From a virus: a stretch of DNA of 64,000 nt. The stretch spans positions 1 through 64,000 of IMG/VR virus record IMGVR_UViG_3300045988_115450; one strand, written 5' to 3'. The notes under the pieces are model-generated. The model was not told the origin of the DNA. It saw only the letters and a program-made list of their open reading frames with translations, and made no database searches. Shown here piece after piece: positions 33,041-53,100 of the stretch. The first letter of the stretch is position 1; each line of letters opens with the position of its first letter. The position numbers and the translations under genes were made by a program.

Positions 33041-33045
33041 TTCCT

Positions 33046-33213: not shown

Positions 33214-33224
33214 ATAATATCCCC

Positions 33225-33377: not shown

Positions 33378-33389
33378 AAAGCTAAAATT

Positions 33390-33626: not shown

Positions 33627-33662
33627 ACTGCTTATTTCCTTCTTTAATCTATAATTTTTATT

Positions 33663-34247: not shown

Positions 34248-34275
34248 GCACTACCCTCGAACCTTATTTTAATTT

Positions 34276-34602: not shown

Positions 34603-34623
34603 GTCGCATACCCATATGTATAG

Positions 34624-35613: not shown

Positions 35614-35625
35614 GTAATAGCGGAC

Positions 35626-35808
35626 TCACCACCCTCTCATTTTCATTTGCTCTCCTTTGCACTTCTTCTGTTTGCTTCCTTTCGCTAATTTCCTATTTTC
35701 CTTGCACTGACTGCAATTGTTTCTATCTCTGCAAAGCCAGCACCCATCCCTATTTCCCCACGCCCAATGCGGTATAGAAGGACGTGGCTTTCTTCTAGCT
35801 TTTCCCAC
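35626..35808 (-). CDS. Basic Cys-rich small protein (possible GTG start)
   Basis: CWLC...CSQC within a Lys/Arg-rich ORF. Confidence 0.3.
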   Translation of the reverse strand: MGKARRKPRPSIPHWAWGNRDGCWLCRDRNNCSQCKENRKLAKGSKQKKCKGEQMKMRGW

Positions 35809-36169
35809 CACTACACCACCTCTTACAAAACCGTTCAAATTCTTCTACTTCGTCTAGGTCTGCATCAAAATACACACCTTGCGTCGGAAGAGCCGAATGC
35901 TGCGGGCCAATCATCATGTAAGCAGTTCCTTTGTGCCGTCGTTCTTCTAGAAAGATTGGGTTCCCAGACTTAGTAAAAGCCTCTCGGATTGTTAGTTTGT
36001 TTGTTAGCATTTTTCTACAGTGGTTAACGGACACCTTCGTAGACACGCAACTCTCATCTTCACTTCGGCAGCATAAGAAAAGCTCACCTTTAGATGAGCT
36101 TAAAAATAGCACCGGATATCGGTGCTCGAAGAATACATATTCAATAGACCAGTCTTTAATAAGCTCCAT
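35795..36169 (-). CDS. Hypothetical protein
   Basis: Start reassigned to MELIKDW. Confidence 0.4.
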   Translation of the reverse strand: MELIKDWSIEYVFFEHRYPVLFLSSSKGELFLCCRSEDESCVSTKVSVNHCRKMLTNKLTIREAFTKSGNPIFLEERRHKGTAYMMIGPQHSALPTQGVYFDADLDEVEEFERFCKRWCSGGKS

Positions 36170-36407
36170 CAAACCCCAACCTTTCATCAATAATAGCCTC
36201 GGTTGCATCTTGCTGGATAACGCCAGCCAGCATGTGAGCAGTTGTCGGAGTACACTCGTAGTAATTAGAATAAATCTCCTCCGTGTCTTTACCAATAGCA
36301 ACAATAGCAATGCTCGTTACGTCGCTAATCACGCTACTGATCTCATCTAAGGATTCCGCAAAGAAGTCCTGATACCGAACGTCTTTATTTGAAATAATAT
36401 GTACCAT
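36156..36407 (-). CDS. Hypothetical protein
   Basis: 83-aa ORF. Confidence 0.4.
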   Translation of the reverse strand: MVHIISNKDVRYQDFFAESLDEISSVISDVTSIAIVAIGKDTEEIYSNYYECTPTTAHMLAGVIQQDATEAIIDERLGFDGAY

Positions 36408-36419
36408 ACAGTGTCCTCC

Positions 36420-41410: not shown

Positions 41411-42577
41411 TTAGTTTTTGAGATCCTTCTTCATCGTGGCTTCAATATCAAAGCCAAACTTCTGACTATAGCGAGTGATAACTCCATCAATACTTCCTCT
41501 GTTAACCATTCGATAGTAGCTCATAAGACCGAGCACATATTGCAGTTGCTCAAGAGGCCAATAAGTTCCGCTCTTTCTGTCCTTCGCGTAATTGAAAAGC
41601 ATCGCCTCGAAGTTGCGCTTCTTCTTATACCCAATCGTGATCTGGTTGTCCTTGTTGATCATCACACCGAGTACCCAATTCTTATGATACGAGGGGCCGT
41701 AATGAGTTTTCTCATCTTTGATGAGATAACTGGCCCCGAAAAGTCTAAACAGATTTTCAATCTTTCTGATAATGAAGCTCTTATCAAACTCAATACCACA
41801 GCTGATGTTCATATCATCAGCATATCTGGTATACGCGAACCTTCTACCCTTTTCATCAGGGTTGTTTTCCGGGTTCTGCAGGCTACGCAGAAACTTACTG
41901 AACTCAAAATCAAACGGAATCATAATCAGATTGGTCAGCATCGGGCTGATCGGCGTTCCCATAGGTAGACCTCCATCCAGGAAGCAAAGCGACAGAGCTT
42001 TTCTAAGCTCTTCTCTCCCGCTTTTGCACTCCATAATGAGACAGAACGGGTAAATCATAGACAGCGCGTTCCATACAAACTCCGGAGTGGTATTAGGAAA
42101 GAAACCGCTGATGTCAGTCTTTAAATACCACTTGCTCTTATTCCACTGATGGACTTTTGCGGCGTCTACACTACTTCTGTTTTTGACATAAGCGTATGCA
42201 GCGGCATGGCTGCTCGCATAAAACTCAGATTCTAACAGCAGTTTTAGCTCTCGCAGACAATTCATCAGTTCGTCGTCCGGCGCGTTAATCTCTCTCATGC
42301 CGCCGCTCTTTTTCGGGATAAAAAACTTATGGTAATGTGTATGAAGATCGCTTTCAAGCAGTTCCTGATGCTTTTTGTTAAATGCTCTCAGTAGTTCAAT
42401 CTTTTTCCCCGTGTCAAACCCTGCCAGGATTCTCTCGGGCAGTCTCTCATATGCAACTGTTCTAGTATATAGAGATCTCGATTCCCTCACATGTTTATCT
42501 TGAAGCAGCGCAGACATAATATCCTCTAAAGAAATCTGCTTATACGGCTCTGTAATTCTTGCTGTTACATAAATCAT
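41411..42577 (-). CDS. Reverse transcriptase, retron-type
   Basis: KKSGGMREINAP (motifs 1-2), YAYVKNRS, LKTDISGFFPN, GLPMGTPISPMLTN, YTRYADDMNIS (YADD), then NWVLGVMINKDNQITIG (retron VTG-like region) and LGLMSYYRMVN. Confidence 0.85.
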   Translation of the reverse strand: MIYVTARITEPYKQISLEDIMSALLQDKHVRESRSLYTRTVAYERLPERILAGFDTGKKIELLRAFNKKHQELLESDLHTHYHKFFIPKKSGGMREINAPDDELMNCLRELKLLLESEFYASSHAAAYAYVKNRSSVDAAKVHQWNKSKWYLKTDISGFFPNTTPEFVWNALSMIYPFCLIMECKSGREELRKALSLCFLDGGLPMGTPISPMLTNLIMIPFDFEFSKFLRSLQNPENNPDEKGRRFAYTRYADDMNISCGIEFDKSFIIRKIENLFRLFGASYLIKDEKTHYGPSYHKNWVLGVMINKDNQITIGYKKKRNFEAMLFNYAKDRKSGTYWPLEQLQYVLGLMSYYRMVNRGSIDGVITRYSQKFGFDIEATMKKDLKN

Positions 42578-42935: not shown

Positions 42936-43037
42936 ATTTAGATTGAATTGGTTGTTAGCAGGCGTGCCATTCCCCTGCATCTCTTTAGCCATTAAGGCGC
43001 GTGGCGACACGAAATTTCCACCTCAAACAACCAATAT

Positions 43038-43706
43038 TTAATATGCTTCCATAGTAAAATCAAAGGCGTCGATCAAAACTATCTTCTTGATCGAACGCCC
43101 ATTCACAAAATTCATGAAGTTTGCTACTGCACAAGAGCAAATCATCCGCACAGAAGGAGCGATACTAAGCTCCAGGTTACATGCAGATCGAGGAGTTTCA
43201 GCCAGAGCTTCCTCTTGAGTAAACTGCATGGAGTTAATCAGATTTTCAACCATCGCACTAGAACTCCAGTCAGCCGCAAAGTGTTGCGCGTCCGTCAGCC
43301 GAAGTCTGGTATCAAACACAGCTTTGATATACGGGTTTCTAGCATTTTCTTCGCAAATTTTTCTGCGGAGATCAATGTTGTCCACCATAAGGAAGACATA
43401 GCCGGACAGACGCTGGTTGGTATACCCCTCCTGAACTACTTCAATACCATTTGCATCAGGATTGATACTCAACATCATATCTTTCACGGCTTCAGCTTTA
43501 TTTCTACCGATGTCGCTATCATTGAACATCTGATTCGCGATATTGTGCGACTCAACCTTGTCAAAATCGTACAGAGTGACCTTCTCAAGCCCAGCTCTTG
43601 CCAACAATTCGGCTACAGTGGAACCGGACGCACCACAACCGATGATATGTACTCTTTCTTTAACCTTCGTGGGATTAAAGAACTCAATACTCTTCGATAA
43701 ATTCAT
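43038..43706 (-). CDS. Minimal ThiF/MoeB/E1-like adenylyltransferase
   Basis: HIIGCGASGSTVAELLARAGLEKVTLYDFDKVESHNIANQMF..DIGRNKAEA (Rossmann GxGxxG plus the E1 DxD..N..RQ-like region). Confidence 0.8.
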   Translation of the reverse strand: MNLSKSIEFFNPTKVKERVHIIGCGASGSTVAELLARAGLEKVTLYDFDKVESHNIANQMFNDSDIGRNKAEAVKDMMLSINPDANGIEVVQEGYTNQRLSGYVFLMVDNIDLRRKICEENARNPYIKAVFDTRLRLTDAQHFAADWSSSAMVENLINSMQFTQEEALAETPRSACNLELSIAPSVRMICSCAVANFMNFVNGRSIKKIVLIDAFDFTMEAY

Positions 43707-43718
43707 CTTTATACCTCC

Positions 43719-43997
43719 TTATAGCATTAAACAATTCAAAAATACATCACTATCGACTTTACTTTCAATCGGCTCAAACATCCAAGAAGCCCAAGCAACA
43801 AATCTTAATTTGCCTCTTTCTTCAATGCAAATACGTTCAACTTGAATGCCGTTAATCAAGGATGTCAATGAGCGCACTGTTATGATCTTACCGCAATAGC
43901 GCGTTTTATCCCCTTCAAATATCCCGTGATCATTTTTAGAAAGAATCGCCGTTCCACTACCTGTATCTACGGAAAACAGATCAGGGTCAGACATCAT
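43719..43997 (-). CDS. Tail-family paralog P1 (divergent), C-terminus ...FLNCLML
   Basis: Shares the C-terminal tail with P2-P5. A 16-aa N-terminal remnant ORF (MKLEDMYVGQKVRVRS) lies just upstream at 44004-44054. Confidence 0.5.
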   Translation of the reverse strand: MMSDPDLFSVDTGSGTAILSKNDHGIFEGDKTRYCGKIITVRSLTSLINGIQVERICIEERGKLRFVAWASWMFEPIESKVDSDVFLNCLML

Positions 43998-44061
43998 GTC
44001 TTCCTAACTCCTCACCCTGACCTTCTGCCCAACATACATATCTTCAAGTTTCATACGTCAC

Positions 44062-44394
44062 CTACAACAACAAACAGTTCATAAAAACCTGCTCATCAAT
44101 AGATTGCTTTAACCGCAACACACTTTTATAGAAAGACATCTCTTTTTTGCTAACCCTTACCCTGTACCAACCGCCAAGTTCATACTCAACGATCTCGCCG
44201 CCGTCTCTTATAAACTCTCTGAGGCAAGGATCGCCCTCCGCGTACATCACATCGTCGGCGTATATAAATCTTTCGTTTGTGATGATGTCTACGCTCTGCG
44301 ACACAGCCCCATTCGGAAATACCGCCCGTAAGTTATCATTAAATTCATCCCACGTTTTTGGAATAAACTCAACCCGCTGCCCAGGTCTAAACAT
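44062..44394 (-). CDS. Tail-family paralog P2, C-terminus ...FMNCLLL
   Basis: MFRPGQRVEF..WDEF...GGWYRV...FYKSVL...DEQVFMNCLLL. Confidence 0.6.
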   Translation of the reverse strand: MFRPGQRVEFIPKTWDEFNDNLRAVFPNGAVSQSVDIITNERFIYADDVMYAEGDPCLREFIRDGGEIVEYELGGWYRVRVSKKEMSFYKSVLRLKQSIDEQVFMNCLLL

Positions 44395-44403
44395 TATATC
44401 ACC

Positions 44404-44745
44404 TCACAATAATAAGCAATTTATGAACAATTTTTCATCAATTGACCTCATGTCTTCTTTCAGACACAACACGCTTTCGTGAAATTTCAGTTTTACTCCA
44501 TTTATATTCACCATATACCAACCAGTAGCATAGTACTTGATAATCTCACCTCCATTTATTAGAAGCTCGTTAAACCAAGAATCGCCTTCCCCATAAAGCA
44601 CCCCTGCAACCAATATCATTTCTCTATGAGTAGTTGAGAATTCATCTAATATCATATCTCTCGCAAACAACTCCATTAAAGCATCCCGAAATTCATCCCA
44701 TGACTTTGGGGCAAGCGTAACTTTCTGTCCAAGTTCAAACATCAT
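44404..44745 (-). CDS. Tail-family paralog P3, C-terminus ...FINCLLL
   Basis: MMFELGQKVTL..WDEF...TGWYMV...FHESVL...DEKLFINCLLL. Confidence 0.6.
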   Translation of the reverse strand: MMFELGQKVTLAPKSWDEFRDALMELFARDMILDEFSTTHREMILVAGVLYGEGDSWFNELLINGGEIIKYYATGWYMVNINGVKLKFHESVLCLKEDMRSIDEKLFINCLLL

Positions 44746-44752
44746 ATTACCT

Positions 44753-45082
44753 CTATAGCAGCAAACAATTCATAAGTACCTCTTCGTCAACATATGCTTC
44801 TTCCATCGACCGTAGCATCGTCTCATAGAACCACGCTCTTTCTCCGCCAAAGTCTACAATGTACCAACCACACTCGAAGTCTAATTCAATCACGCCACTC
44901 ATCCTGCGTAACTTATAAAAATCGGGAGCGCTATATCCTGCTGCACTAGCTGCAAGATACCCAGTGGTATCACAGCTCGTAAACCTTTTTGCGCTGCGAG
45001 GAAGATGCTTTAGGTAAGCGCTGCAAAACTCATCCCAGCTCCTCAATGCTATCCTGACTCGTTGTCCGATCTCGAACATCAT
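44753..45082 (-). CDS. Tail-family paralog P4, C-terminus ...LMNCLLL
   Basis: Start reassigned to MMFEIGQRVRI, preceded by RBS GAGGAG. CGWYIV...FYETML...DEEVLMNCLLL. Confidence 0.6.
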   Translation of the reverse strand: MMFEIGQRVRIALRSWDEFCSAYLKHLPRSAKRFTSCDTTGYLAASAAGYSAPDFYKLRRMSGVIELDFECGWYIVDFGGERAWFYETMLRSMEEAYVDEEVLMNCLLL

Positions 45083-45092
45083 ATCAACTCCT

Positions 45093-45437
45093 CTATAACA
45101 GCAGGCAATCCATAAGTGTCTTTTCGTCAACACTTTTTTCTTTTAATTGACACGGCGCTGTTTCGCCCGGCCCACCCACCAAACACTCATCTCTTACTTC
45201 GCCAAAGTCAACGCGCCAAATCCAATAGTCATCCGGTTCCAGATAAATTGTCGCTCCGTATTTATCTGGAGCATTAAAATTGTCACCTTCAATCATTTCG
45301 CATCCATCATCGACGCATTCTTGAAACACTGAATGAAACCTACGTTTCACGTGTTCCACCGCACTCTCCAAATTCCAATAAACACCGGATAAATCAATAC
45401 CCTGGTCTGTTTCTGTTATCACACAATATACCTTCAT
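45093..45437 (-). CDS. Tail-family paralog P5 (divergent body), C-terminus ...LMDCLLL
   Basis: Start reassigned to MKVYCVI, preceded by RBS AAAGGAGAAG. The tail is VDEKTLMDCLLL. Confidence 0.55.
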   Translation of the reverse strand: MKVYCVITETDQGIDLSGVYWNLESAVEHVKRRFHSVFQECVDDGCEMIEGDNFNAPDKYGATIYLEPDDYWIWRVDFGEVRDECLVGGPGETAPCQLKEKSVDEKTLMDCLLL

Positions 45438-45611
45438 ACCGGTCTTCTCCTTTCTTATGTACCTCTGAACAGCTAACCAGCTGTTTAAGTTCAAAAGTTT
45501 TCTGCTCTGGGAGTAGGAAAACTTTTGAAGCGACACAGCCATTTGTTACTCCCTCGTTCCGACAAGAGTGATATGTAATTTAACATATCTGTACAGGCAC
45601 ATATGTTTTTT

Positions 45612-46298
45612 TTACTTAATTAACATCTTACCGTCACGCCAATCGGGCCGCTCATCAATAATTTTATCTGCGTCCTCCATGAATTCTTCAAGCTCAACCG
45701 CGGCGTTCATAATCCACTCGATGCCATCCTGTACATCACGCACGTCCACCTTCTCAAACCGGTCAATGTTATCGAAAAACCATCTGCACAAATCATATAC
45801 AGCGGGGTTCCATCGTTCCACTGCGAGTTCCACATTGTCGCTTTCGTATAGGATGCCTTCTCTAACATCATAAACCTGTGAAGATATGTAGCCTTTCTTA
45901 TTGAAAATCTGAAAGACGTAGAAATCATCAACGTCTGTCAGCAAATCTGCTCTATACTTTATATCCGTAGAAGATGGACTGACACCCATGTTCACATGAG
46001 AATGCCCGTACAACCGAACCTTATTGAATATCTCCGTGTTAAGAGAATCCTGCCAGTTCACATAGTCCGCATCTTCAGGTTCGGTGCTTGCCGACGTGAC
46101 CTTCTGAGGGAATACCAAGACGTCCTCCACGATAAACTCAGCTGGATTTTCCAACCTTCTTACAACTCCGTGCCATCCAACCTCCAGATTCCTATTCATA
46201 ACAAGCAAACACGTCTTCATCCATGCCTTCTTACTGTATACGATTTTGCACGGATTTGTCGCGGCCAACAAATCCGTTGCATTAGTTGCCTTATTCAT
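45612..46298 (-). CDS. JAB/MPN (JAMM) metallopeptidase
   Basis: Exact JAMM signature HxHx7SxxD (GHSHVNMGVSPSSTD), with an upstream Glu (LEVGWHG). Confidence 0.8.
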   Translation of the reverse strand: MNKATNATDLLAATNPCKIVYSKKAWMKTCLLVMNRNLEVGWHGVVRRLENPAEFIVEDVLVFPQKVTSASTEPEDADYVNWQDSLNTEIFNKVRLYGHSHVNMGVSPSSTDIKYRADLLTDVDDFYVFQIFNKKGYISSQVYDVREGILYESDNVELAVERWNPAVYDLCRWFFDNIDRFEKVDVRDVQDGIEWIMNAAVELEEFMEDADKIIDERPDWRDGKMLIK

Positions 46299-47706
46299 TG
46301 CTCTTATTCTCCTTTATCCATTTAATTGCGTCGATGTAATTAACTACTCGCCCATCCGGCAACTCCAATACTACAGCGCCTTTTCTCAACAACTCTTCAA
46401 GGAATGATCTCAATACGACAGTATCACTAAGATTCAGATTCCCGCTTTCGGCGCACGTCGTGTCTACCGTATAAACGTAGTCACATTTGTCGCAAGATTT
46501 CTCTAGCGCCTGTTGCCAGCTCCCCATGCAACCATATTTATCAAGGTGTGTGTTGGGGAGATAGCTGTTGTATTCACAGCCATACCCATATGCCTTGATG
46601 GGTAGTACCATTCCTCCGAAAGAAAGTCTCCATGCGGAACACATTCTTACTTTGATATTAGAGTCAATGAAAATCCCTGTCATTAACTTTTTAGTATCAC
46701 TTTCTGTCAGGCCCACATACGAAGACCGCGTATAAAAAATCGACGACCGATTGTTGATGTACTCTCTCGCAATCTCTGGATCAAACAGTGTCATATAACC
46801 AGTTACAACATATACGATATTCCCATCTTTGTCACCGCTCTCAACGGACACATTTTTGTTCGACAAAAAATAATCCATTAACTCGTTCTTGCTTTCAACA
46901 TTACTGTTGTCAATTGCTTCCACCAACAAAGACCAACCTTCGTATTCTCTATACCAATCTCTCAAATCGGACATCAATTTATTGATCTGACTTCTTGCAC
47001 TCTCCATCTTCTTTGCGTATCTTTCCCTCTGTACGTTCCTTAGCTTTCCCTCATAGCCATAAAGGTAATATCTCTTTTTAGCTGAGGCCACGTCCACAGC
47101 AGCGGCAACCATATCGTTCATCGCTTTACAGATTACACTCATGCCGGAGTCTTCTTTAGACAGAATCTTAATAAACTTTGACTCCGCTTCAGTCCTGTCT
47201 TTAATGTACCATGGGCAGAATACATTGAAAAGACACACTAGGTAATGCCACGAGCCATAGTTATCCACGTTGGTAAGGACAACCGTACTCTTCCTCTCTT
47301 CATTACTGAAAATTCTCAGTATGATACCGAGTCGTTCTTTCATTAGATTCAGCTCTCTTGCCGTCTTCTCTTTCCAACTGCTCGCACATTTCATATTACT
47401 GACTAAAGTTTCTACGGCCTTAACCTTATCACACACGCAAAATGTAATCGTGTTGTCTTGAGAAGTTACCTCCGAAAAACGCTCTTTGTCTTTTATCCAC
47501 GTAATCCAATCAGCACAATTAGGATCTACCACTCTAACCATGATACGCACGTCCGCCGGAACTCTTGGCTTCAAAAACAACCGAGCCATTGCCAACGCAA
47601 AGTCATCGCCTTTGAACGTCCCGTCACCAGCAATATTAGAAAACTCAGACTCCAGCTCTGGGGCCAGCACTAAAACTTCACTGCGTTTCAAACAATTTGA
47701 AAACAT
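46291..47706 (-). CDS. Large (471-aa) protein of unknown function in the E1/JAB cassette
   Basis: Start reassigned to MFSNCLKRSEV, preceded by RBS AAAGGAGAAG. Cys-rich C-terminal region. Confidence 0.55.
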   Translation of the reverse strand: MFSNCLKRSEVLVLAPELESEFSNIAGDGTFKGDDFALAMARLFLKPRVPADVRIMVRVVDPNCADWITWIKDKERFSEVTSQDNTITFCVCDKVKAVETLVSNMKCASSWKEKTARELNLMKERLGIILRIFSNEERKSTVVLTNVDNYGSWHYLVCLFNVFCPWYIKDRTEAESKFIKILSKEDSGMSVICKAMNDMVAAAVDVASAKKRYYLYGYEGKLRNVQRERYAKKMESARSQINKLMSDLRDWYREYEGWSLLVEAIDNSNVESKNELMDYFLSNKNVSVESGDKDGNIVYVVTGYMTLFDPEIAREYINNRSSIFYTRSSYVGLTESDTKKLMTGIFIDSNIKVRMCSAWRLSFGGMVLPIKAYGYGCEYNSYLPNTHLDKYGCMGSWQQALEKSCDKCDYVYTVDTTCAESGNLNLSDTVVLRSFLEELLRKGAVVLELPDGRVVNYIDAIKWIKENKSNE

Positions 47707-47786
47707 ATATCTTCTCCTTTCTTTATGAACTCTTGGCAGGCCATCCGACGTAACCGAATGCCCTCCCAGCAACTCACTGTGTTATG

Positions 47787-47815
47787 TACGAGGCCGGACA
47801 ATGTCCGGCCTCGTA
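47787..47815. other. 29-nt perfect palindrome (14-bp GC-rich arms) without a U-tract
   Basis: TACGAGGCCGGACA-A-TGTCCGGCCTCGTA, between the Ubl-like gene and the 471-aa gene. Confidence 0.55.
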
Positions 47816-47832
47816 GATTGTGCTAACTCAAA

Positions 47833-48072
47833 TCAGATCGCGTTACCTTGCGCCTTAACAATAGCACTCAGAGTACAAATACCAGCGGCACCAAGTTCGG
47901 CAAAAGTGCAATCCATATCATCAGGCGTCAGAATCGTGCCGGAAAGAGAATTGACGCTACGGCTGCACTCAATTCCGATCTTCTCGAACAGAGAACGAGG
48001 GGTCTCTACATGTTCATCTACGGCCTGGCTATCAAAACGGCGGGTGGTACTTCTAACATTCACAATAATCAT
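47833..48072 (-). CDS. Small beta-grasp/ubiquitin-like (ThiS/MoaD-like) candidate, C-terminus ...VKAQG-NAI
   Basis: 79 aa. MIIVNVR..., a mid helix, then GTILTPDDMDCTFAELGAAGICTLSAIVKAQGNAI. This is a ThiS/MoaD-like layout with a Gly 3 residues from the end. Confidence 0.45.
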   Translation of the reverse strand: MIIVNVRSTTRRFDSQAVDEHVETPRSLFEKIGIECSRSVNSLSGTILTPDDMDCTFAELGAAGICTLSAIVKAQGNAI

Positions 48073-48113
48073 AATATACTTCCTTTCTGTTATTACATCT
48101 ATGCTTATTTGTT

Positions 48114-48503
48114 TTAGCCAGCTACTACGATCTTGGAACTGACCCGTGCCATCATAACGTCGATCTCTTCCAGCGCTTCGCGCACCTGGGCTTCAATCTT
48201 TTCTACCTTCTCGATAACAGAAGCATATCTCTCGGCAACAACCTCACGTACGGAACGGTCAGCTTCGGTAATAAGACTCACAGTTACGACCGCACGACCA
48301 GAGCCATCACAAGACTCAGCCTCATAGATAATACCGGTCGGTGCTACTACGCCTCTCTCGCCAGCGAGAGTGTAAAACAGTGCGTTGCCATCTTCGTCCA
48401 GCAGTTGCACAGACTTAGGCCGGTACAGAGCTGCGCGATTGATTTCTTCAAGAGTGAAAGCACTCTTGAGTGTTACTGCGTTACCACACACAATAATTTC
48501 CAT
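48114..48503 (-). CDS. 129-aa protein ending ...KIVVAG; first gene downstream of RNA copy B
   Basis: ORF preceded by RBS AAAGGAGAAG. C-terminal Gly. Confidence 0.5.
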   Translation of the reverse strand: MEIIVCGNAVTLKSAFTLEEINRAALYRPKSVQLLDEDGNALFYTLAGERGVVAPTGIIYEAESCDGSGRAVVTVSLITEADRSVREVVAERYASVIEKVEKIEAQVREALEEIDVMMARVSSKIVVAG

Positions 48504-48944: not shown

Positions 48945-49799
48945 TTAGTTTTCCTGCTGTCCACTCCAAACAACCAGACAATCAGGATTGGGGACACCTC
49001 TGGTTTCCTTACCATCTAGCCATCTAGCCAGTACATAAGAGGTCGTCAAGAACACACGGTGGCGGTAATGCTTGCACCGGCCATCAATAGCAGAATCCTT
49101 AATCCAATCTCTCAAGCGGACAATCTGCCTATCCAAACTAGACTCAGCATAACCAGTCTGAAGAACATTCCAGAAATATTCGAGCCTAACATCGCTCGCC
49201 CCGGCTTCTTTCGCCAGATACATGGCAGCTGTGATCGGAGCCGTGCCAAGCTTTCTCTGTCTCACCTTCAAGAAACTATTAACCCAGGAGAATTCAGCGA
49301 TGTGCTTCGAAATCATGTCCGCTCTCTTAGCTTCATTCTCCAAGTGCCTCGCACTAAATTCATTCAGCACCATGCAGATTGCAACCGAGCGCTTGTAAGA
49401 AGAAATCTTTCCTCTGTTTCCGCCCTCGGCCATACACAAAGCGTCGGCTTCACTTCTCGCCCTACCCCGGTCAATGTACGGACTGCGTTCCATATTGAAC
49501 AGGAAGAACATCTTTACTGTCTTACCGCAGCGCTTCACCGCTTCGAGCCGGTGATGCCCGTCAATAAGAACACCAGCCTTATCAAACATAATAAAGCCGG
49601 TCGGAGTATTTTCATCCCATGTGCCATTCATCATATGGGACTTGTACTTATTCACAGTGCTCTTACTGATCGGACGATTGCCGCCGGACATAGCCAACAA
49701 ACCCGTCGCCATTTCCGGAGACACGTAAGCATACGCCAACTGTCCACCGTTCCGTTCTTCTAGCAACAAGTTGCTCAACAATTCTTCATAAGCTGTCAT
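48945..49799 (-). CDS. ParB/sulfiredoxin-like nuclease-domain protein
   Basis: Start reassigned to MTAYEEL, preceded by RBS GGAGG; the listed N-terminal extension would overlap a tRNA. Motif LIDGHHRL. Confidence 0.6.
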   Translation of the reverse strand: MTAYEELLSNLLLEERNGGQLAYAYVSPEMATGLLAMSGGNRPISKSTVNKYKSHMMNGTWDENTPTGFIMFDKAGVLIDGHHRLEAVKRCGKTVKMFFLFNMERSPYIDRGRARSEADALCMAEGGNRGKISSYKRSVAICMVLNEFSARHLENEAKRADMISKHIAEFSWVNSFLKVRQRKLGTAPITAAMYLAKEAGASDVRLEYFWNVLQTGYAESSLDRQIVRLRDWIKDSAIDGRCKHYRHRVFLTTSYVLARWLDGKETRGVPNPDCLVVWSGQQEN

Positions 49800-49825
49800 T
49801 TGTATGTACCTCCTAAAAATTTTGC

Positions 49826-49902
49826 TGGTGGTTCCTGCCCGGCTCGAACGGGCGACCATCCAGTTATGAGCTGGACGCGCTAACCAACTGCGCTAAGGAA
49901 CC
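49826..49902 (-). tRNA. tRNA-Met/Ile2 (anticodon CAT), CCA encoded
   Basis: Hand-folded cloverleaf: GGTTCCT/AGGAACC acceptor, TCCAG-CTCATAA-CTGGA, GCCCG-TTCGAGC-CGGGC. Confidence 0.85.
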
Positions 49903-49978
49903 AGGTACGTTTAAAGCCGCTGAATTTATCAGCGGCTTTAAACTGTTAATGAAAGCAAGTGTCCGTATAAAACGAACG

Positions 49979-50053
49979 TGGCAGCGCCGGACTGAGATCG
50001 AACAGTCTTCCACGGAGTCAAAGTCCGTTGCATTACCGTTATGCTACGGCGCT
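49979..50053 (-). tRNA. tRNA-Gln (TTG), CCA encoded
   Basis: AGCGCCG/CGGCGCT acceptor and ACGGA-CTTTGAC-TCCGT anticodon arm. Confidence 0.8.
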
Positions 50054-50164
50054 ATATAAATCAAGCAGAGCAGAGCAGAGTTTAAAGCCATTCCAGGCTA
50101 TGTAAAGAAAGGAGGTGGTTTATCAACAATAACAGGTAGGAGAATCATTTTCTGTTGCTTGATA

Positions 50165-50239
50165 TGGGGTAGGCGACGAGTGCCGATCTCGCGTTTCCGG
50201 TTTGGAAGACCGGTGTTCTAGCCGTTGAACTACGCCTAC
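50165..50239 (-). tRNA. tRNA-Gly (TCC), CCA encoded, atypical T-loop
   Basis: GTAGGCG/CGCCTAC acceptor and CCGGT-CTTCCAA-ACCGG. The T-loop reads ATCGGCA instead of TTCRANY. Confidence 0.7.
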
Positions 50240-50269
50240 ATTTTTGCGGTTCCGCAAACCGCATTTTTT

Positions 50270-50899
50270 TTAATTCATATATAAATCATAATAACTTTGT
50301 TTTCTTCTTGGTTTCAAATCTGGATTTTTTAAACGCCTTTTGATGAACTCAACTGTATTATCCAGCCCATAGTTCCTGACGTATGTATTGATCCTGTTTG
50401 CTCCCAAACCTAAAGTTTTAGCCCAGTCCTTCCCAGTATGTATCGTTCCGTCAACATCAATAAGCGAAGTTGTAGACTTGTATTTCGAATTATCTGCCAA
50501 TGTTACCCATCTGCAATTATCAGGAGAATAATCCCCGTCCCAATCAATTCTATCAATAGTCAAACCATCATCGTACCCGTTAGTTAATGACCAACTCTCA
50601 AATAATTCTGGATTGCGCATCCAATCATCACAAACCTTAACACCCTTAGCGCCATACCATCTGTAGCTCTTATTACTCTTATCATAGCACCTAGCTTTCA
50701 TATCGCTAAAAATTCTCCGGAGCTTGTCGTCACTCCATGAAGCATCATAATTTATATAACCCCCGCTTCTTCCGATATGTCTACAAGCTTTCGCCTGCTC
50801 AATATGCCTTTTCTGTTTGTTCGTTTCAAACCCACACTCAGCACATCTCACATGGTATAATCTATGCCCGTCCCTATGCCTGAAATCACACTCATACAA
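50270..50899 (-). CDS. Free-standing HNH homing endonuclease inside the tRNA cluster
   Basis: DRIDWDGDYSPDNCRWVT..DN and a C-terminal HTH-like tail. Same family as the two intron HNH genes. Confidence 0.8.
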   Translation of the reverse strand: MYECDFRHRDGHRLYHVRCAECGFETNKQKRHIEQAKACRHIGRSGGYINYDASWSDDKLRRIFSDMKARCYDKSNKSYRWYGAKGVKVCDDWMRNPELFESWSLTNGYDDGLTIDRIDWDGDYSPDNCRWVTLADNSKYKSTTSLIDVDGTIHTGKDWAKTLGLGANRINTYVRNYGLDNTVEFIKRRLKNPDLKPRRKQSYYDLYMN

Positions 50900-51047
50900 G
50901 ACATCGAAAATACCTATCCTAGTACCAACAATATTCTCTTTTTCCAGAATATCACCATCTTTCTGCGTGTTGCTAAATAATAATCCGATGAGAGTGCTGC
51001 CCTCTCGCCTGCGTTGTTCACTGTACTACTGTTATACTAATCGGATG

Positions 51048-51128
51048 TACGGGCGACAAGATTTGAACTTGCAAGCCTTACGGCACCGGGGCCTAAACCC
51101 GGCGTGTATACCGTTCCACCACGCCCGC
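51048..51128 (-). tRNA. tRNA-Leu (TAG), long variable arm
   Basis: GCGGGCG/CGCCCGT acceptor and CCGGG-TTTAGGC-CCCGG. Confidence 0.75.
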
Positions 51129-51210
51129 ATGGCACCACTAAGTCATGGTCGGCTGCGCATTTATCCTTTTTTGAATCGTGGTAGATGATTTTGCTTCGTA
51201 CAACCACGCA

Positions 51211-51285
51211 TGGACTGAGTGGAGAATTTTGAAATCTCGACCTCTGGTTCCCAAAACCAGCGTTCTGCCTCTGAACTACACCCAG
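51211..51285 (-). tRNA. tRNA-Pro (TGG), CCA encoded
   Basis: CTGGGTG/CACTCAG acceptor and CTGGT-TTTGGGA-ACCAG. Confidence 0.75.
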
Positions 51286-51288
51286 ATA

Positions 51289-51363
51289 TGGAGGCCGATG
51301 CGAGTTCGAACTCAGCGTCTGTGGGTTACAAAGCCACTGTTTTACCACTTAAACTAATCGGCC
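51289..51363 (-). tRNA. tRNA-Thr (TGT), CCA encoded
   Basis: GGCCGAT/ATCGGCC acceptor. Anticodon loop TTTGTAA, with a C:C at the loop-closing pair. Confidence 0.7.
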
Positions 51364-51513
51364 ACGCACCCCGTTTTGCGGGGTGGCTATGTAAGGGAAT
51401 CAAAAAGGGGAACTCCTGTCTCTTCCAGGATGCCAACACACTACTACGGACTGCCAGAGGCAAACCGCCACTTTTCAGGTGTCATAGTCCGCAAACTATG
51501 GGCTTTTCTTTAG

Positions 51514-51595
51514 TGCGGGATAAGAGACTTGAACTCTTACGTCTATCGACATCGAGACTTAAACACGAGGTGTCTACCGATTCCACCAATCCCGC
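51514..51595 (-). tRNA. tRNA-Leu (TAA), long variable arm
   Basis: GCGGGAT/ATCCCGC acceptor and anticodon loop TTTAAGT. Confidence 0.75.
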
Positions 51596-51948
51596 ATATT
51601 GAACTTGCTACAACCCAGCCTGGTGGTTGACCCGTGGGCGTTGATAACTGACCCAAACCATTAACCCAGGATTTTGTAAAACTTTAACCGTTAACCTTTG
51701 ATTCTTGAACTTTAATCTTCTGAAGATCTTTGAGCCTTGAATTTTGAAATTTTAACTTTGAAGTTTGAGCTTTACAGCAACATTTCTTCTATAAGAAATT
51801 AGATTAACAGTCCAATCTTTTTGTAAGCGCAAAATTTCAAGTTTTGCTTTGTAGTTGGCACATATTTGTTCATTTTTACATCGAACCAAGTGCCGTCAGC
51901 ACGATGGGTTACCGTTTTAGGTTTTCGGGTTGCAGCAAGTTGCTTATT

Positions 51949-52602
51949 TTAGTATTCTACGGTGATTGTAGTGGTCGCATTGGACACAGATAGCTGAGAA
52001 TCTACATCCGCAGTAAACGTGTCAATCCAATCGCTCAAAACCTTGATTTCATTACCAATGTCAAGCGGATCAACGAGTTCATACGTATTGTTGGCAATAT
52101 ACTCTTCTCTCAACCGCTTAACGACCTCAGAATCCTTGGTTGTCTTGGCCTCTTTAGGCTGGCACTGGAGGAAATTCATGATATACTGTTCAGCTTTCGC
52201 TTCAATCCACTCGCCTTCATGTTTGGAAACCTCAGCACGGGCTCTTTCGTACTGCCGGACCATTACATCAAGCAAATCTTTCTTAGCCATGATTCCATGG
52301 CTTTTCATTTCGATGGCTTCGGCTACGGTGTAAGGTTCGCCGCCAATTACCACCGGGGTTTTGGCATTGGAGAGCACAACTGCTCTCTTAATAGCCGTCC
52401 GACGAGCAATCAAGTCCGTAACAGACTGATAATCAGACTTCATATCCTTCTTGAGGGTTTCGACCAGCACACCGCCGATCTTTTTGTCGCTCACTTTCTT
52501 ACTGGCAACGAAGGTTTTACCAGAAGTAGCATTGAAAATTCTAGCGTCCAAAATTTTCAGCTCTGCAAGAGCTTTATGGACGGTCATAGTTTCTTTGTTC
52601 AT
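51949..52602 (-). CDS. Hypothetical 217-aa protein embedded in the tRNA region
   Basis: ORF preceded by RBS GAGGAAC. No motif recognised. Confidence 0.5.
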   Translation of the reverse strand: MNKETMTVHKALAELKILDARIFNATSGKTFVASKKVSDKKIGGVLVETLKKDMKSDYQSVTDLIARRTAIKRAVVLSNAKTPVVIGGEPYTVAEAIEMKSHGIMAKKDLLDVMVRQYERARAEVSKHEGEWIEAKAEQYIMNFLQCQPKEAKTTKDSEVVKRLREEYIANNTYELVDPLDIGNEIKVLSDWIDTFTADVDSQLSVSNATTTITVEY

Positions 52603-52653
52603 ATTAGTTCCTCACTTTCTTATTTATGGAATTAGATTTTTATCGTGGTATCG

Positions 52654-52744
52654 TGGTCTCCCTGGGTGAATTCGAATCACCATATACCTTATGAGGGCCT
52701 TCCAATTATAAGTTGGAAGCTATAACCAATTTAGCTACAGGGAG
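52654..52744 (-). tRNA. Type II-like tRNA (19-nt variable region) with anticodon TAT, CCA encoded
   Basis: CTCCCTG/CAGGGAG acceptor, GCTA/TAGC D stem, TCCAA-CTTATAA-TTGGA, variable AGGCCCTCATAAGGTATAT, GGTGA-TTCGAAT-TCACC, discriminator A. Confidence 0.7.
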
Positions 52745-52933
52745 ATATTTGTTCAGCAACCACAACCGCCCTATCAATCAGTCGGCCTAACCAAAAGATA
52801 GGGCTGGATTGTGTTGCCCAACCGTGCCTGAGAGCTTTCTTGCCTAGCCTGTACTTAACCAGGTGTCTGCAATCAATGTTTAGGTTGCTGGTTTTGACCC
52901 TCGCTCTAGAACCAGTTAACTAGAGCGATTGAG

Positions 52934-53019
52934 AGCTACTAGACGGAATTGCACCGCCTTGAAGTCATAAGTGAGGCGCGAGAGGAGTTACGCCCACCTC
53001 TTCACCTGCTTGGAGTAGC
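52934..53019 (-). other. tRNA-like element / degenerate tRNA (no canonical anticodon arm)
   Basis: Acceptor-like GCTACT/AGTAGC and T-arm-like GGCGG-TGCAATT-CCGTC. The central stem AGAGG/CCTCT carries an 11-nt loop. Confidence 0.3.
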
Positions 53020-53024
53020 ATATG

Positions 53025-53100
53025 TGGCACCAGCACTAAGATTCGAACTTAGAACTACGGTTTTGGAGACCGCCGTTTTTCCACTTAAAACTATGCTGGT
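53025..53100 (-). tRNA. tRNA-Trp (CCA), CCA encoded
   Basis: ACCAGCA/TGCTGGT acceptor and GCGGT-CTCCAAA-ACCGT. Confidence 0.8.

What the first reader, a model, noticed from the sequence alone, without database searches (positions are those of the whole stretch)
43038..48503. Minimal E1-like (ThiF), JAMM peptidase and Ubl-like gene set in a phage, with no recognisable E2
- The 222-aa ThiF-like protein has the GxGxxG adenylation fold but no Cys-rich or rhodanese parts.
- The JAB protein has an exact HxHx7SxxD motif.
- The 79-aa protein has a ThiS/MoaD-like layout and ends ...VKAQG-NAI. A Gly followed by a short extension is what JAB peptidases trim in QbsE/CysO-type systems.
- The 129-aa protein ends in ...VVAG.
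- No E2-like protein is evident. The 471-aa protein is a candidate for a missing component.

Prokaryotic E1/JAB/Ubl operons are established (Iyer-Burroughs-Aravind neighbourhoods, Bil, Bub, CBASS Cap2/Cap3). This gene content and its phage early-region context look different from those.
Basis: partly seen in the sequence, partly recalled or inferred. Interest (0 to 1): 0.8.

Follow-up and report, generated by a model that had tools for sequence, protein, structure and literature searches.

The report
Phage ubiquitin-like conjugation module with RT
This uncultured gut phage carries a widespread but undescribed six-gene cassette: a ubiquitin-like protein, a partner protein, a probable E2-like protein, a JAMM peptidase, a minimal E1 and a retron-type reverse transcriptase, so some phages appear to run their own ubiquitin-style protein-tagging system.

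Summary

**Components confirmed**
- The 222-aa protein is a ThiF/E1 adenylation domain.
- The 228-aa protein is a JAMM/MPN+ peptidase with an invariant E…HSH…S..D motif.
- The 79-aa protein belongs to a beta-grasp, ubiquitin-like family.

**Two details that are wrong**
- The Gly in "KAQG-NAI" is not conserved. The family tail is VKAD(N/S)A followed by 0-3 residues, or by a whole fused protein.
- The "VVAG" end of the 129-aa protein is not conserved either.

**The 471-aa protein**
- It is probably the missing E2.
- Its C-terminal domain has an invariant PNxH…C…G motif.
- It is homologous to a distant clade (hhalign 95-96%), and that clade aligns to canonical E2 enzymes over the whole UBC core (85.5%).
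- The direct comparison with E2 enzymes and the Foldseek search both failed.

**Conservation**
- The order 129aa, Ubl, 471aa, JAB, E1, retron-type reverse transcriptase (RT, window 41411-42577) recurs in more than 100 phage or MAG contigs.
- The flanking genes vary between these contigs.
- None of the non-E1/RT families is in Pfam, PHROGs or PADLOC.

**Verdict**
- It is a new, phage-borne variant of the bacterial Bil/Bub-type Ubl-E2-JAB-E1 systems, linked to an RT.
- The target and the biological role are unknown.

The parts
48114..48503 (-). p129: partner protein of the Ubl. It is an alpha/beta domain followed by a ~40-residue C-terminal helix, with no invariant residue. In many relatives it is fused C-terminal to the Ubl.
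   Evidence: - The family was found in 84 of 88 sources, always next to the Ubl gene.
- About 60 protein clusters are Ubl-p129 fusions of 200-209 aa.
- Secondary structure comes from the AlphaFold model of the fusion.
- The alignment has no invariant column.
- There is no PDB or Pfam match.
- hhalign finds no link to the Ubl or to E2 enzymes.
47833..48072 (-). p79: ubiquitin-like beta-grasp protein. Its tail is ...IVKAQGN-AI, and the family consensus is VKAD(N/S)A followed by 0-3 residues.
   Evidence: - The family HMM finds it in 85 sources.
- The model of homolog P0073 has pLDDT 83 and a bb-a-bb-b order.
- The top 50 Foldseek PDB matches are almost all ubiquitin-fold proteins (ubiquitin, SUMO including SMT3 fusion tags, NEDD8, ISG15, Parkin's Ubl, Mth1743). 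Target-normalised TM-scores are 0.56-0.73 for the single-domain targets.
- The C-termini of 60 distinct homologs were tabulated.
46291..47706 (-). p471: N-terminal alpha/beta domain, a long helix, and a C-terminal UBC/E2-like domain. The E2-like domain has an invariant P384-N385-x-H387...C393-x-G395 motif.
   Evidence: - The start is fixed by invariant M1-F2 in homologs.
- The AlphaFold model has pLDDT 85.8.
- There is no PDB fold or sequence match.
- The C-domain is homologous to a distant clade at 94.6-96.2%.
- That distant clade matches canonical E2 enzymes at 85.5%, P=5.7e-6, over 116 columns.
- The family has 2232 clusters at 50% identity.
- The gene overlaps the JAB gene by 8 nt.
45612..46298 (-). 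JAMM/MPN+ (JAB) metallopeptidase
   Evidence: - E39, H99-S-H101, S109 and D112 are invariant.
- A core profile searched against the PDB hits RPN11 at 0.0033, Caldiarchaeum Rpn11-like at 0.0086, JAMM1 at 0.028, and also PSMD14, BRCC36 and CSN5.
- 4 of 27 members weakly hit PF14464 Prok-JAB.
43719..45542 (-). Five tandem paralogs (149, 126, 113, 110 and 92 aa) ending ...(M/I)(N/D)CL(L/M)L. They are a lineage-specific insertion between JAB and E1, probably not part of the core module.
   Evidence: - The alignment and DNA show the tail is kept through different codons.
- The paralogs occur only in the window's close relatives L001 and L008.
- The JAB-E1 junction is an insertion hot spot in other loci.
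43038..43706 (-). Minimal single-domain E1-like adenylyltransferase (ThiF family)
   Evidence: - It matches PF00899 at 5e-24.
- A family profile searched against the PDB hits UBA5 at 1.9e-18, then MoeB, ThiF, TcdA, Cap2 and MccB.
- Invariant residues are G23, G25, G28, D47, D49, N55, Q59, K70, D109, R134 and C176.
- The conserved Arg of the NxxR(Q/L) motif of UBA5 and MccB is Asn58.
42951..43031 (-). skipping-rope RNA (Rfam RF02924) in the E1-RT gap. It is lineage-specific, and its membership of the module is doubtful.
   Evidence: - It scores 50.3 bits against a gathering threshold of 36.7, E=8.4e-10.
- It was not found in 8 other loci.
- The remaining 360 nt of the gap fold with z=-2.95.
41411..42577 (-). 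Retron-type reverse transcriptase (YADD), the conserved sixth gene of the module
   Evidence: - It matches PF00078 at 2.5e-13.
- It matches NF038233 (retron St85 family) at 1e-47, but with 162.9 bits against a cut-off of 235.
- It matches PADLOC RT_II-A at 5e-41.
- It lies downstream of the E1 in 81 of 88 sources and in 66 of 87 non-redundant loci.
- The gap to the E1 is often 20 nt or less.

Best explanation
The region is a phage-encoded ubiquitin-like activation and conjugation cassette of the bacterial Bil/Bub type. Its gene order is partner (p129), Ubl (p79), E2-like (p471), JAB peptidase, minimal E1. In most relatives a retron-type reverse transcriptase follows directly.

**Proposed mechanism**
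1. The JAMM peptidase trims the Ubl precursor. In the window it removes Ala-Ile after ...VKAQGN. In relatives it removes 0-3 residues, or releases the whole p129 domain where the two are fused. This is inferred from the tail pattern and from the Bub precedent.
2. The E1, probably a homodimer like UBA5, MoeB and BubD, adenylates the exposed C-terminal carboxylate. It may take it onto the invariant crossover-loop Cys176. The enzyme family and conserved residues are shown. The chemistry is inferred.
3. The Ubl passes to the invariant Cys393 of the UBC-like C-terminal domain of p471. The N-terminal domain and long helix of p471 would select the target (inferred).
4. The target and purpose are unknown. 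The tight and widespread linkage with p129 and the reverse transcriptase suggests one of two things. The RT, its product or p129 may be what is regulated or modified. Alternatively, all the proteins may act together early in infection, for counter-defence or for exclusion of rival phages.
For: **Components**
- The E1 domain matches PF00899 at 5e-24. Its closest solved relative is UBA5 at 1.9e-18. Invariant residues include the nucleotide-binding set, R134 and C176.
- The JAMM motif is invariant, and the core profile hits 20 JAMM enzymes among 21 PDB hits.
- The Ubl fold is supported by a model with pLDDT 83. Its Foldseek matches are ubiquitin, SUMO, NEDD8 and ISG15.

**Processing**
- The Ubl tail behaves like a precursor. 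A fixed VKAxxx core is followed by 0-3 variable residues, or by a whole fused domain in about 60 clusters.
- This parallels BubAB, which the JAB domain of BubCD cleaves (PMC11601596).

**E2-like domain**
- PNxH...C..G is invariant in p471.
- hhalign links the main clade to the distant clade at 94.6-96.2%.
- hhalign links the distant clade to E2 enzymes at 85.5%, P=5.7e-6, over 116 columns. APH..G..CLGN lies on HPN..G.ICL, and controls score 6.5% or less.
- The model shows a UBC-like order of elements with a helical insertion.

**Module**
- The same order recurs in about 75 of 88 viral sources and about 30 MAG contigs.
- In 87 non-redundant loci only these families are widespread, in 66-87 loci. 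The next most common neighbour is in 24.
- The p471 and JAB genes overlap.
- The JAB-E1 and E1-RT gaps are often 20 nt or less.
- In the distant clade the core set is E2-like, JAB, E1 and Ubl.
Against: **E2 assignment**
- It is indirect. The main clade against E2 enzymes is not significant (P about 0.3-0.5).
- Foldseek of a confident model found no UBC fold.
- Profile searches of the PDB and Pfam found nothing.

**Other weaknesses**
- The Ubl does not end in Gly. Its probable last residue varies between Ala, Asn and Gly. That is unusual for E1 substrates.
- The E1 lacks the otherwise conserved Arg of the NLxRQ motif.
- No target, no E3 and no biochemical data exist.
- All loci were collected through the JAB protein, so the frequency of the module within the phage group is unknown.
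- Linkage with the RT could still be conserved synteny within one phage lineage. The RT is absent from the distant clade.
Confidence: 0.6

Rival explanations
1. Sulfur-carrier pathway. p79 would be a ThiS/MoaD/CysO-like carrier. JAB would trim it. The E1 would adenylate it and convert it to a thiocarboxylate. The thiocarboxylate would donate sulfur, for example to thiolate tRNA, DNA or a small molecule during infection.
For: - The E1 is a minimal ThiF/MoeB-like domain. Its best NCBIfam hits are ThiF models.
- C176 sits where MoeB has its crossover-loop Cys. The spacing to the following Pro matches the E. coli MoeB sequence as I recall it (inference).
- Sets of JAB, E1 and a small beta-grasp protein with a trimmed tail are known from CysO and QbsE pathways (Iyer et al. 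2006, PMC1779556).
- The phage invests heavily in tRNA genes and RNA repair.
Against: - The family has no Gly-Gly terminus.
- No rhodanese, cysteine desulfurase or sulfur-acceptor enzyme was found among conserved neighbours.
- All ThiF/MoeB equivalog scores are far below their cut-offs.
- The conserved 471-aa partner carries an E2-like Cys motif rather than a known sulfurtransferase fold.
Confidence: 0.1
2. Protein-nucleotide chemistry feeding the reverse transcriptase. The E1 would act like MccB and attach a nucleotide to the C-terminus of the trimmed Ubl. The retron-type RT would then use that nucleotide's hydroxyl, or an RNA held by the complex, as its primer. The product would be a protein-linked cDNA.
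For: - The best single-sequence PDB match of the E1 is MccB.
- The canonical phosphate-binding Arg is replaced throughout the family. This hints at altered nucleotide handling.
- The probable last residue is Asn in the window and in the distant clade, where tails read KGN*, KIQGN* and KKIKGN-C. MccB's substrate also ends in Asn (my own knowledge).
- The RT is the most conserved neighbour.
- In many loci there is no room for an ncRNA between the E1 and the RT.
Against: - With a family profile UBA5, not MccB, is the closest relative.
- The E1 lacks MccB's N-terminal peptide-clamp domain. It is only 222 aa.
- Most family members probably end in Ala, or have Ser or Gly at the Asn position. That does not fit succinimide chemistry.
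- The distant clade has no RT.
- The E2-like Cys domain has no role in this scheme.
- The idea is entirely speculative.
Confidence: 0.05
3. Cargo defence or counter-defence cassette whose parts are only loosely related. The RT would be a retron-like abortive-infection module carried by the phage. The JAB, E1 and Ubl genes would mainly serve to undo or jam host ubiquitin-like immunity, such as Bil tail tagging or CBASS Cap2 priming, rather than to tag targets of their own.
For: - Retron-type RTs are typically defence genes, and PADLOC retron models hit at 5e-41.
- The junctions of the module take up other defence or anti-defence cargo. Examples are MNT/HepT, an N6 methyltransferase and ParE/Phd nearby.
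- Host Bil and CBASS systems depend on JAB-reversible conjugation (PMC11601596).
Against: - The phage keeps a full set of Ubl, E1 and an E2-like Cys protein under strong conservation. A simple deconjugase or decoy would not need these.
- The order and the gene overlaps suggest one operon.
- No retron effector or msr/msd RNA was identified.
Confidence: 0.2

Closest known systems
Type I Bub (6E.1 / DUF6527) operons: BubAB (Ubl-E2 fusion), BubCD (JAB-E1 fusion), BubE (Ye et al. 2024, PMC11601596)
   Same: - Same gene order: Ubl, E2, JAB, E1.
- The E1 is a minimal single adenylation domain of the UBA5/ThiF type.
- The Ubl is often made as a fusion that a JAB peptidase must cut.
- There is no E3.
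   Different: - Here JAB and E1 are separate genes.
- The Ubl is fused to p129, which has no catalytic residue, and not to the E2.
- The E2-like domain sits at the end of a 471-aa protein and keeps a Cys. The E1 also keeps a crossover-loop Cys. Bub works through oxyesters and lacks that Cys.
- No DUF6527 protease is present.
- The Ubl tail is not Gly.
- The system is phage-encoded and linked to an RT.
Bil systems (BilA Ubl, BilB E2, BilC JAB, BilD E1)
   Same: Both have four activities: Ubl, E2, JAMM peptidase and E1. In both, the E2 is thought to pick the target without an E3.
   Different: - BilD is a large IAD-AAD-CYS E1, whereas this one is 222 aa.
- The Bil Ubl ends in Gly.
- Bil is a host defence that tags phage tails, whereas this module is in the phage.
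- No sequence-level hit to any Bil-type model was obtained.
Type II CBASS Cap2 (E2-E1) and Cap3 (JAB)
   Same: - The Rossmann part of the E1 hits PADLOC E1-E2 models (3e-17) and the NCBIfam 6A-MBL cap2_3 model (1e-19).
- A JAB partner is present.
- The idea of E1, E2 and JAB regulating a nucleotide-polymerising enzyme, CD-NTase there and possibly the RT here, is analogous.
   Different: - There is no CD-NTase.
- There is no E2-E1 fusion.
- A separate Ubl exists.
- The hits cover only residues 15-96.
ThiS-ThiF, MoaD-MoeB, CysO and QbsE sulfur-carrier systems
   Same: Both have a small beta-grasp protein, a minimal E1 and, in CysO/QbsE, a JAB that trims the tail.
   Different: - The terminus is not Gly-Gly.
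- No sulfur-transfer partners are present.
- An E2-like Cys protein is present.
Lambda/T1 tail assembly TAPI (Ubl) and TAPK (JAB + NlpC/P60)
   Same: Both are phage-encoded pairs of a Ubl-like domain and a JAB domain. In both, the Ubl is followed by another domain.
   Different: - Those lie in the tail gene block and have no E1 or E2.
- This module lies in the replication and early block and has both.
Retrons (RT + msr/msd RNA + effector)
   Same: The RT is closest to retron RT models: St85 family at 1e-47 and PADLOC types II-A and I-A.
   Different: - Scores are below the family cut-offs.
- No msr/msd was found.
- The partners are Ubl-system proteins, which are not among the retron effector types I know of.

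Membership tests
ThiF/E1-like adenylyltransferase superfamily (PF00899) | Rossmann adenylation domain scoring above the Pfam gathering threshold | tested here: met
   85.2 bits against a cut-off of 28.1, E=5e-24, residues 17-218
ThiF/E1-like adenylyltransferase superfamily (PF00899) | Nucleotide-binding residues: GxGxxG, DxD, N..RQ, Lys, Mg-binding Asp, substrate Arg | tested here: inconclusive
   G23/G25/G28, D47/D49, N55, Q59, K70, D109 and R134 are invariant. The Arg of N..RQ is Asn58 in all 86 members. The alignments to MccB and UBA5 show this directly.
ThiF/E1-like adenylyltransferase superfamily (PF00899) | Catalytic or crossover-loop Cys, as in E1 enzymes that form thioesters | tested here: inconclusive
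   C176 is invariant. It lies a few residues before the segment that aligns to UBA5 'SLPTTMG'. Exact equivalence to UBA5 C250 is not shown.
JAMM/MPN+ metallopeptidases | E ... HxH x7 S xx D zinc and catalytic motif | tested here: met
   E39, H99, H101, S109 and D112 are invariant in both clades.
JAMM/MPN+ metallopeptidases | Sequence or fold similarity to solved JAMM enzymes | tested here: met
   The core profile hits RPN11 at 0.0033, Rpn11-like at 0.0086, JAMM1 at 0.028, and also BRCC36 and CSN5. 20 of 21 hits are JAMM enzymes. The fold itself was not modelled.
Ubiquitin-like beta-grasp modifiers | Beta-grasp fold | tested here: met
   The model is of family member P0073, 36% identical to p79 in this domain. 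It has pLDDT 83. Foldseek matches ubiquitin, SUMO, NEDD8 and Mth1743 with TM-scores of 0.56-0.73. The window protein itself was not modelled.
Ubiquitin-like beta-grasp modifiers | C-terminal Gly or Gly-Gly exposed after processing | tested here: not met
   The tail consensus is VKAD(N/S/G/C)A followed by 0-3 residues. Gly is rare at the predicted terminus.
UBC/E2 superfamily | HPN-type loop followed by a catalytic Cys | tested here: inconclusive
   The window has P384-N385-T-H387 ... C393-M-G395, invariant in the family. The distant clade has APH(I/V)xxxGxxCLGN.
UBC/E2 superfamily | Profile or fold similarity over the UBC core | tested here: inconclusive
   - Distant clade against E2 enzymes: 85.5%, P=5.7e-6, 116 columns. 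Controls score 6.5% or less.
- Main clade against distant clade: 94.6-96.2%.
- Main clade against E2 enzymes: not significant.
- Foldseek PDB: no match.
- Pfam Prok-E2 families: no hit.
Type I Bub (6E.1) | Ubl-E2 fusion, JAB-E1 fusion and the DUF6527 protease BubE | tested here: not met
   The genes are separate. The Ubl is fused to p129 and not to the E2-like protein. No DUF6527 hit was found. Only the gene order is shared.
Bil | Large IAD-AAD-CYS E1 (BilD) | tested here: not met
   The E1 is 222 aa with a single adenylation domain.
Type II CBASS | CD-NTase plus a Cap2 E2-E1 fusion | tested here: not met
   No nucleotidyltransferase is among the conserved neighbours. PADLOC E1-E2 models match only E1 residues 15-96.
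PRTRC (ParB-related, ThiF-related cassette) | PRTRC ThiF above its cut-off, plus PRTRC proteins A-F and ParB | tested here: not met
   TIGR03736 scores 35.4 bits against a cut-off of 144.75. No other PRTRC model was hit. The ParB-like neighbour is present only in the window's close relatives.
Retron | Retron-clade RT above a family cut-off | tested here: not met
   NF038233 scores 162.9 bits against 235. PADLOC RT_II-A hits at 5e-41, and that library has no curated cut-off.
Retron | Adjacent msr/msd non-coding RNA | tested here: inconclusive
   - Rfam finds only a skipping-rope RNA in the gap.
- The rest of the gap is structured, with z=-2.95.
- The gap is not conserved in other loci.
- Many loci have a gap of 20 nt or less.
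MccB-type peptide nucleotidyltransferase | N-terminal peptide-clamp domain and a substrate ending in Asn | tested here: not met
   The match to MccB covers only residues 17-90 of the Rossmann core. The protein starts 16 residues before that core. Most family tails do not end in Asn.

The most novel reading that the evidence does not exclude
Phages of gut Clostridia carry their own complete ubiquitin-like conjugation machinery: a Ubl with a non-Gly tail, a new type of E2 and a minimal E1. This machinery is mechanistically coupled to a retron-type reverse transcriptase. The coupling could take one of three forms:
- the RT is switched on by Ubl conjugation;
- the Ubl is attached to the RT's nucleic-acid product;
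- a nucleotidylated Ubl C-terminus serves as the primer.

Any of these would be a new link between protein tagging and reverse transcription.
Probability: 0.15. Interest if true: 0.95.

Novelty: new variant of a known kind. Interest (0 to 1): 0.72.

Why it matters
Bacterial ubiquitin-like conjugation (CBASS Cap2/Cap3, Bil, Bub) has so far been described as host immunity against phages. This work points to a large, unannotated family of the same kind of machinery on the phage side.
- The p471 family alone has 2232 clusters at 50% identity.
- It is found in many large phages from animal guts.

If the module is active, it would show that phages also use Ubl tagging. It would also add:
- a new E2 architecture;
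- a Ubl with an Ala/Asn tail;
- an E1 without the canonical Arg;
- a reverse transcriptase as a fixed partner, which no described Ubl system has.

The module is compact enough to reconstitute in vitro, so the questions are directly testable.

Tried and rejected
**No close relatives in isolate collections**
- A near-identity search of 9 kb against INPHARED phages found no match.
- A tblastn search with JAB found one unannotated faecal phage. No cultured relative is available.

**Library searches that found nothing**
- Pfam, NCBIfam, PHROGs and PADLOC on single proteins gave nothing for p129, p79, p471, JAB or the paralogs.

**PRTRC idea rejected**
- The idea came from the ParB-like neighbour plus ThiF. 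The scores are far below the cut-offs, and the ParB-like gene is lineage-specific.

**p129 is not an E2 or a second Ubl**
- There is no invariant residue.
- hhalign against E2 enzymes and against p79 gives 0.8% or less.
- There is no PDB or Pfam match.

**p471 searches**
- Foldseek against the PDB gave a best E of 0.05.
- Foldseek against BFVD found only one family member.
- Sequence profiles of p471 and of its C-domain against the PDB gave no hits.

**Direct E2 test**
- hhalign of the main-clade C-domain against E2 enzymes was not significant, with or without the helical insertion.

**Reference E2 or PRTRC sequences**
- Plasmid hits to the E1 were checked for reference sequences. They were only ThiF/YcaO or double-ThiF loci.

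**Retron RNA**
- Rfam finds only the skipping-rope RNA, which is absent from 8 other loci.
- The E1-RT gaps of different loci share no common sequence.

**Promoter and terminator scan**
- Counts were at chance level.

**Literature**
- Searches for ThiF, JAB, RT and phage combinations found no description of this module.

Full report
**1. What is in the sequence**

All genes in 41-50 kb lie on the minus strand. In the direction of transcription the order is:
- a ParB-like gene at 48945-49859, matching phrog_5931;
- p129 at 48114-48503;
- p79 at 47833-48072;
- p471 at 46291-47706, whose ATG start is fixed by the invariant M1-F2 of its homologs;
- a 228-aa protein at 45612-46298 that overlaps p471 by 8 nt;
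- five tandem paralogs at 43719-45542;
- a 222-aa ThiF protein at 43038-43706;
- a 460-nt gap;
- a 388-aa reverse transcriptase at 41411-42577.

The window is a phage replication region.
- Upstream lie nine tRNA genes, an HNH endonuclease and a tail-fibre-like gene.
- Downstream lie RtcB, an RNA ligase, an NAD-dependent DNA ligase, a primase-helicase, a DNA polymerase and NrdD.
- A 97%-identical protein is encoded on a 106-kb IMG/VR contig.
- No isolate phage is similar.

**2.

*E1.* The 222-aa protein is a ThiF-family adenylation domain.
- It matches PF00899 at 5e-24.
- A family profile is closest to human UBA5 at 1.9e-18. Next come a ThiF-type protein (9EGB-D), TcdA, MoeB, ThiF, MccB and Cap2.
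- In 86 family members G23, G25, G28, D47, D49, N55, Q59, K70, D109, R134 and C176 are conserved.
- The Arg of the N-x-x-R-Q motif is Asn58 throughout. The alignments to MccB and UBA5 show this directly.

*JAB.* The 228-aa protein has no library hit on its own.
- Its family keeps E39, H99-S-H101, S109 and D112 invariant.
- A core profile built from both clades finds RPN11 (0.0033), the Caldiarchaeum Rpn11-like protein, Pyrococcus JAMM1, PSMD14, BRCC36 and CSN5.
- 20 of 21 PDB hits are JAMM enzymes.

*Ubl.* For p79 I modelled a natural fusion homolog, P0073.
- Its N-domain is 36% identical to p79.
- The model has mean pLDDT 83. It shows a beta-grasp order of elements, followed by a low-confidence linker at residues 72-74.
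- The top 50 Foldseek matches are almost all ubiquitin-fold proteins: ubiquitin, SUMO (including SMT3 fusion tags), NEDD8, ISG15, Parkin's Ubl and the ThiS/MoaD-like Mth1743. Target TM-scores are 0.56-0.73 for the single-domain targets.

**3. The tails**

Among 60 distinct p79 homologs the C-terminus is (V/I)VKAD(N/S/G/C)A followed by 0-3 variable residues.
- Examples are NA*, NAA*, SAF*, SAM*, NAR*, GARC*, GGC* and NAID*.
- The window protein reads VKAQGN-AI. Its closest relative, L009, reads IKADSA-AI and has the same length.
- By position, the window's mature end is therefore probably Asn77, with Ala-Ile as the propeptide.
- A profile alignment to ubiquitin puts VVK on VLR. The four residues ADNA or AQGN then correspond to LRGG.

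In about 60 protein clusters the Ubl is fused, through ...VKADNA-A(T)V..., to the p129 domain.
- A fixed core followed by a variable extension or a whole protein is how ubiquitin precursors look.
- It is also how BubAB is built before the JAB domain of BubCD cuts it (PMC11601596).

The VVAG end of p129 is not conserved either.

**4. The 471-aa protein**

The AlphaFold model is confident, with pLDDT 85.8. It matches nothing in the PDB. In BFVD it matches only one uncharacterised siphovirus protein.

The family is large. It has 2232 clusters at 50% identity, nearly all of them 460-510 aa.

The C-terminal domain has an invariant P-N-x-H ... C-x-G motif, with C393 in the window protein.

JAB homologs in more distant contigs (L121-L129) are preceded by 343-563-aa proteins. 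These end in ...APH(I/V)xxxGxxCLGN...AIQF(V)ESVNxDDxAGK. That motif resembles the E2 signature HPN(I/V)xxxGxICLD ... PNPDDP.

Profile-profile tests gave the following.

| Comparison | Probability | P-value | Columns |
|---|---|---|---|
| Main clade vs distant clade | 94.6% | 7.3e-8 | 93 |
| Main clade vs distant clade, helical insertion 306-349 removed | 96.2% | 2.3e-9 | 109 |
| Distant clade vs seven canonical E2 enzymes | 85.5% | 5.7e-6 | 116 |
| Six unrelated control alignments | 6.5% or less | 0.0056 or higher | n/a |
| Main clade vs E2 enzymes directly | not significant | about 0.3-0.5 | n/a |

- In the comparison of the distant clade with E2 enzymes, the Cys lies on the catalytic Cys.
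- In the direct comparison, the best local alignment uses the same register.

The order of elements in the model is helix, two strands, a helical insertion, two strands, the PNxH loop, Cys, then helices. This fits a UBC core carrying an insertion.

I rate p471 as E2-like at about 0.6. "No recognisable E2" is true for routine tools but probably not for the biology.

**5. The module is bigger and widespread**

Homologs of the JAB protein lie in at least 191 IMG/VR stretches. I fetched 80 of them. A further 43 lie in contigs of MAG bins, mostly gut Clostridia.

Iterated HMMs on all ORFs give the order p129, p79, p471, JAB, ThiF, RT in about 75 of 88 viral sources and about 30 MAG contigs. Most exceptions are contigs cut at an end.

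In 87 non-redundant loci only these families are common:
- JAB in 87;
- ThiF in 84;
- p471 in 74;
- p129/p79 in 73;
- RT in 66;
- the next most common neighbour in 24.

This is therefore a discrete module in variable surroundings.
- The p471 and JAB genes overlap.
- The JAB-ThiF and ThiF-RT gaps are often 20 nt or less.
- The same two junctions also take up insertions: an N6 methyltransferase, an MNT/HepT pair, a DHH phosphoesterase and, in this window, the five paralogs and a skipping-rope RNA.

The distant clade has only E2-like, JAB, E1 and then a Ubl.
- Its Ubl ends ...KKIKGN-C, ...KIQGN or ...SKGN, or is fused to further domains.
- It has no RT.

The Ubl, E2-like, JAB and E1 set is therefore the old core. 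p129 and the RT mark the large gut-phage clade.

**6. The reverse transcriptase**

- It has YADD.
- It matches PF00078.
- It matches the retron St85 family model at 1e-47, but below the cut-off.
- It matches PADLOC retron RT types II-A and I-A.
- I found no msr/msd.
- The gap in the window holds an Rfam skipping-rope RNA at 50.3 bits. This is a motif of unknown function noted for its association with nearby genes (Weinberg et al. 2017). It is absent from eight other loci.
- The rest of the gap is more structured than shuffled sequence, with z=-2.95. It is not conserved between loci.

**7. Mechanism**

Shown:
- the families and folds of the E1, JAB and Ubl;
- the conserved residues;
- the precursor-like tails and fusions;
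- the conserved order and coupling of the genes.

Inferred:
- JAB trims the Ubl;
- the E1 adenylates it and may use C176;
- C393 of the E2-like domain accepts it;
- the N-terminal part of p471 chooses the target.

Unknown:
- the target;
- the role of p129, which has no invariant residue and is therefore probably not an enzyme;
- the role of the RT.

Rivals:
- a sulfur-carrier pathway, which has no Gly-Gly tail and no sulfur enzymes;
- MccB-like nucleotidylation feeding the RT, which is attractive but speculative;
- a loose cargo of defence or anti-defence genes.

**8. Comparison and novelty**

The closest described systems are type I Bub and Bil.
- The module shares the set of activities and the Ubl-E2-JAB-E1 order with Bub.
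- It fails the defining features of each family. The fusions, the DUF6527 protease, the oxyester chemistry, the large BilD E1 and the Gly tail are all absent.
- It is also not PRTRC, not CBASS type II and not a ThiS/MoaD pathway by the tests listed.

I found no paper that describes it.

I file it as a new variant of a known kind. It is a phage-borne Ubl system with new protein families and an RT partner.

Noticed in passing
window 43719-45542 (-): Five tandem paralogous genes (149, 126, 113, 110 and 92 aa) all end in ...(F/L)(M/I)(N/D)CL(L/M)L. Each copy uses different codons for this tail, so the peptide tail itself is under selection. It resembles a CaaX box or a C-terminal degron. There is no Pfam or PHROG hit apart from one weak, sub-threshold match of the 149-aa copy to DUF7336 (E=0.015). 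The genes occur only in the window's close relatives (L001, L008).
   Followed up: partly
window about 43998-44052 (-): The fifth paralog has an in-frame TAG. The reading MKLEDMYVGQKVRVRS*EDMMSDP... carries the family's N-terminal GQ(K/R)V motif upstream of the stop. This could be a nonsense mutation with a restart at the ATG ATG, or a sequencing error. No suppressor tRNA is among the nine tRNAs.
   Followed up: partly
window 42951-43031 (-): A skipping-rope RNA (Rfam RF02924, 50.3 bits, E=8.4e-10) lies directly after the ThiF stop codon. This is a motif of unknown function. The next ~360 nt are G+C-richer and fold with z=-2.95.
   Followed up: partly
window 15412-19527 (-): The DNA polymerase is split into two ORFs, 17530-19527 and 15412-16545. 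They match consecutive parts of phrog_405. A 212-aa ORF (16604-17242) lies between them, which suggests an inserted mobile element or a naturally split polymerase.
   Followed up: no
window 30113-37667 (-) and 49826-53100 (-): RtcB (36420-37667), an RNA ligase (30113-31585) and nine tRNA genes occur together. They look like a tRNA repair and replacement kit against host anticodon nucleases.
   Followed up: no
window 48945-49859 (-): A ParB-like protein (DGHHR motif, phrog_5931) lies directly upstream of the module. Its longest ORF overlaps tRNA-Met (49826-49902), so the true start is probably further downstream. The gene is present only in close relatives.
   Followed up: partly
L004 9091-10026; L007 10747-11478 and 12469-13081: The junctions of the module are insertion hot spots in relatives. 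A DHH/DHHA1-like phosphoesterase sits between p471 and JAB. An N6 methyltransferase sits between JAB and E1. An MNT/HepT toxin-antitoxin pair sits between E1 and RT.
   Followed up: partly
L122 (1.2-Mb contig of a Saccharibacteria MAG) 6866-10591: A distant version of the core (E2-like 355 aa, JAB, E1, then Ubl proteins, one with two beta-grasp-like repeats and a helical tail) lies in a megabase-size contig. This may be a prophage or a cellular copy.
   Followed up: partly
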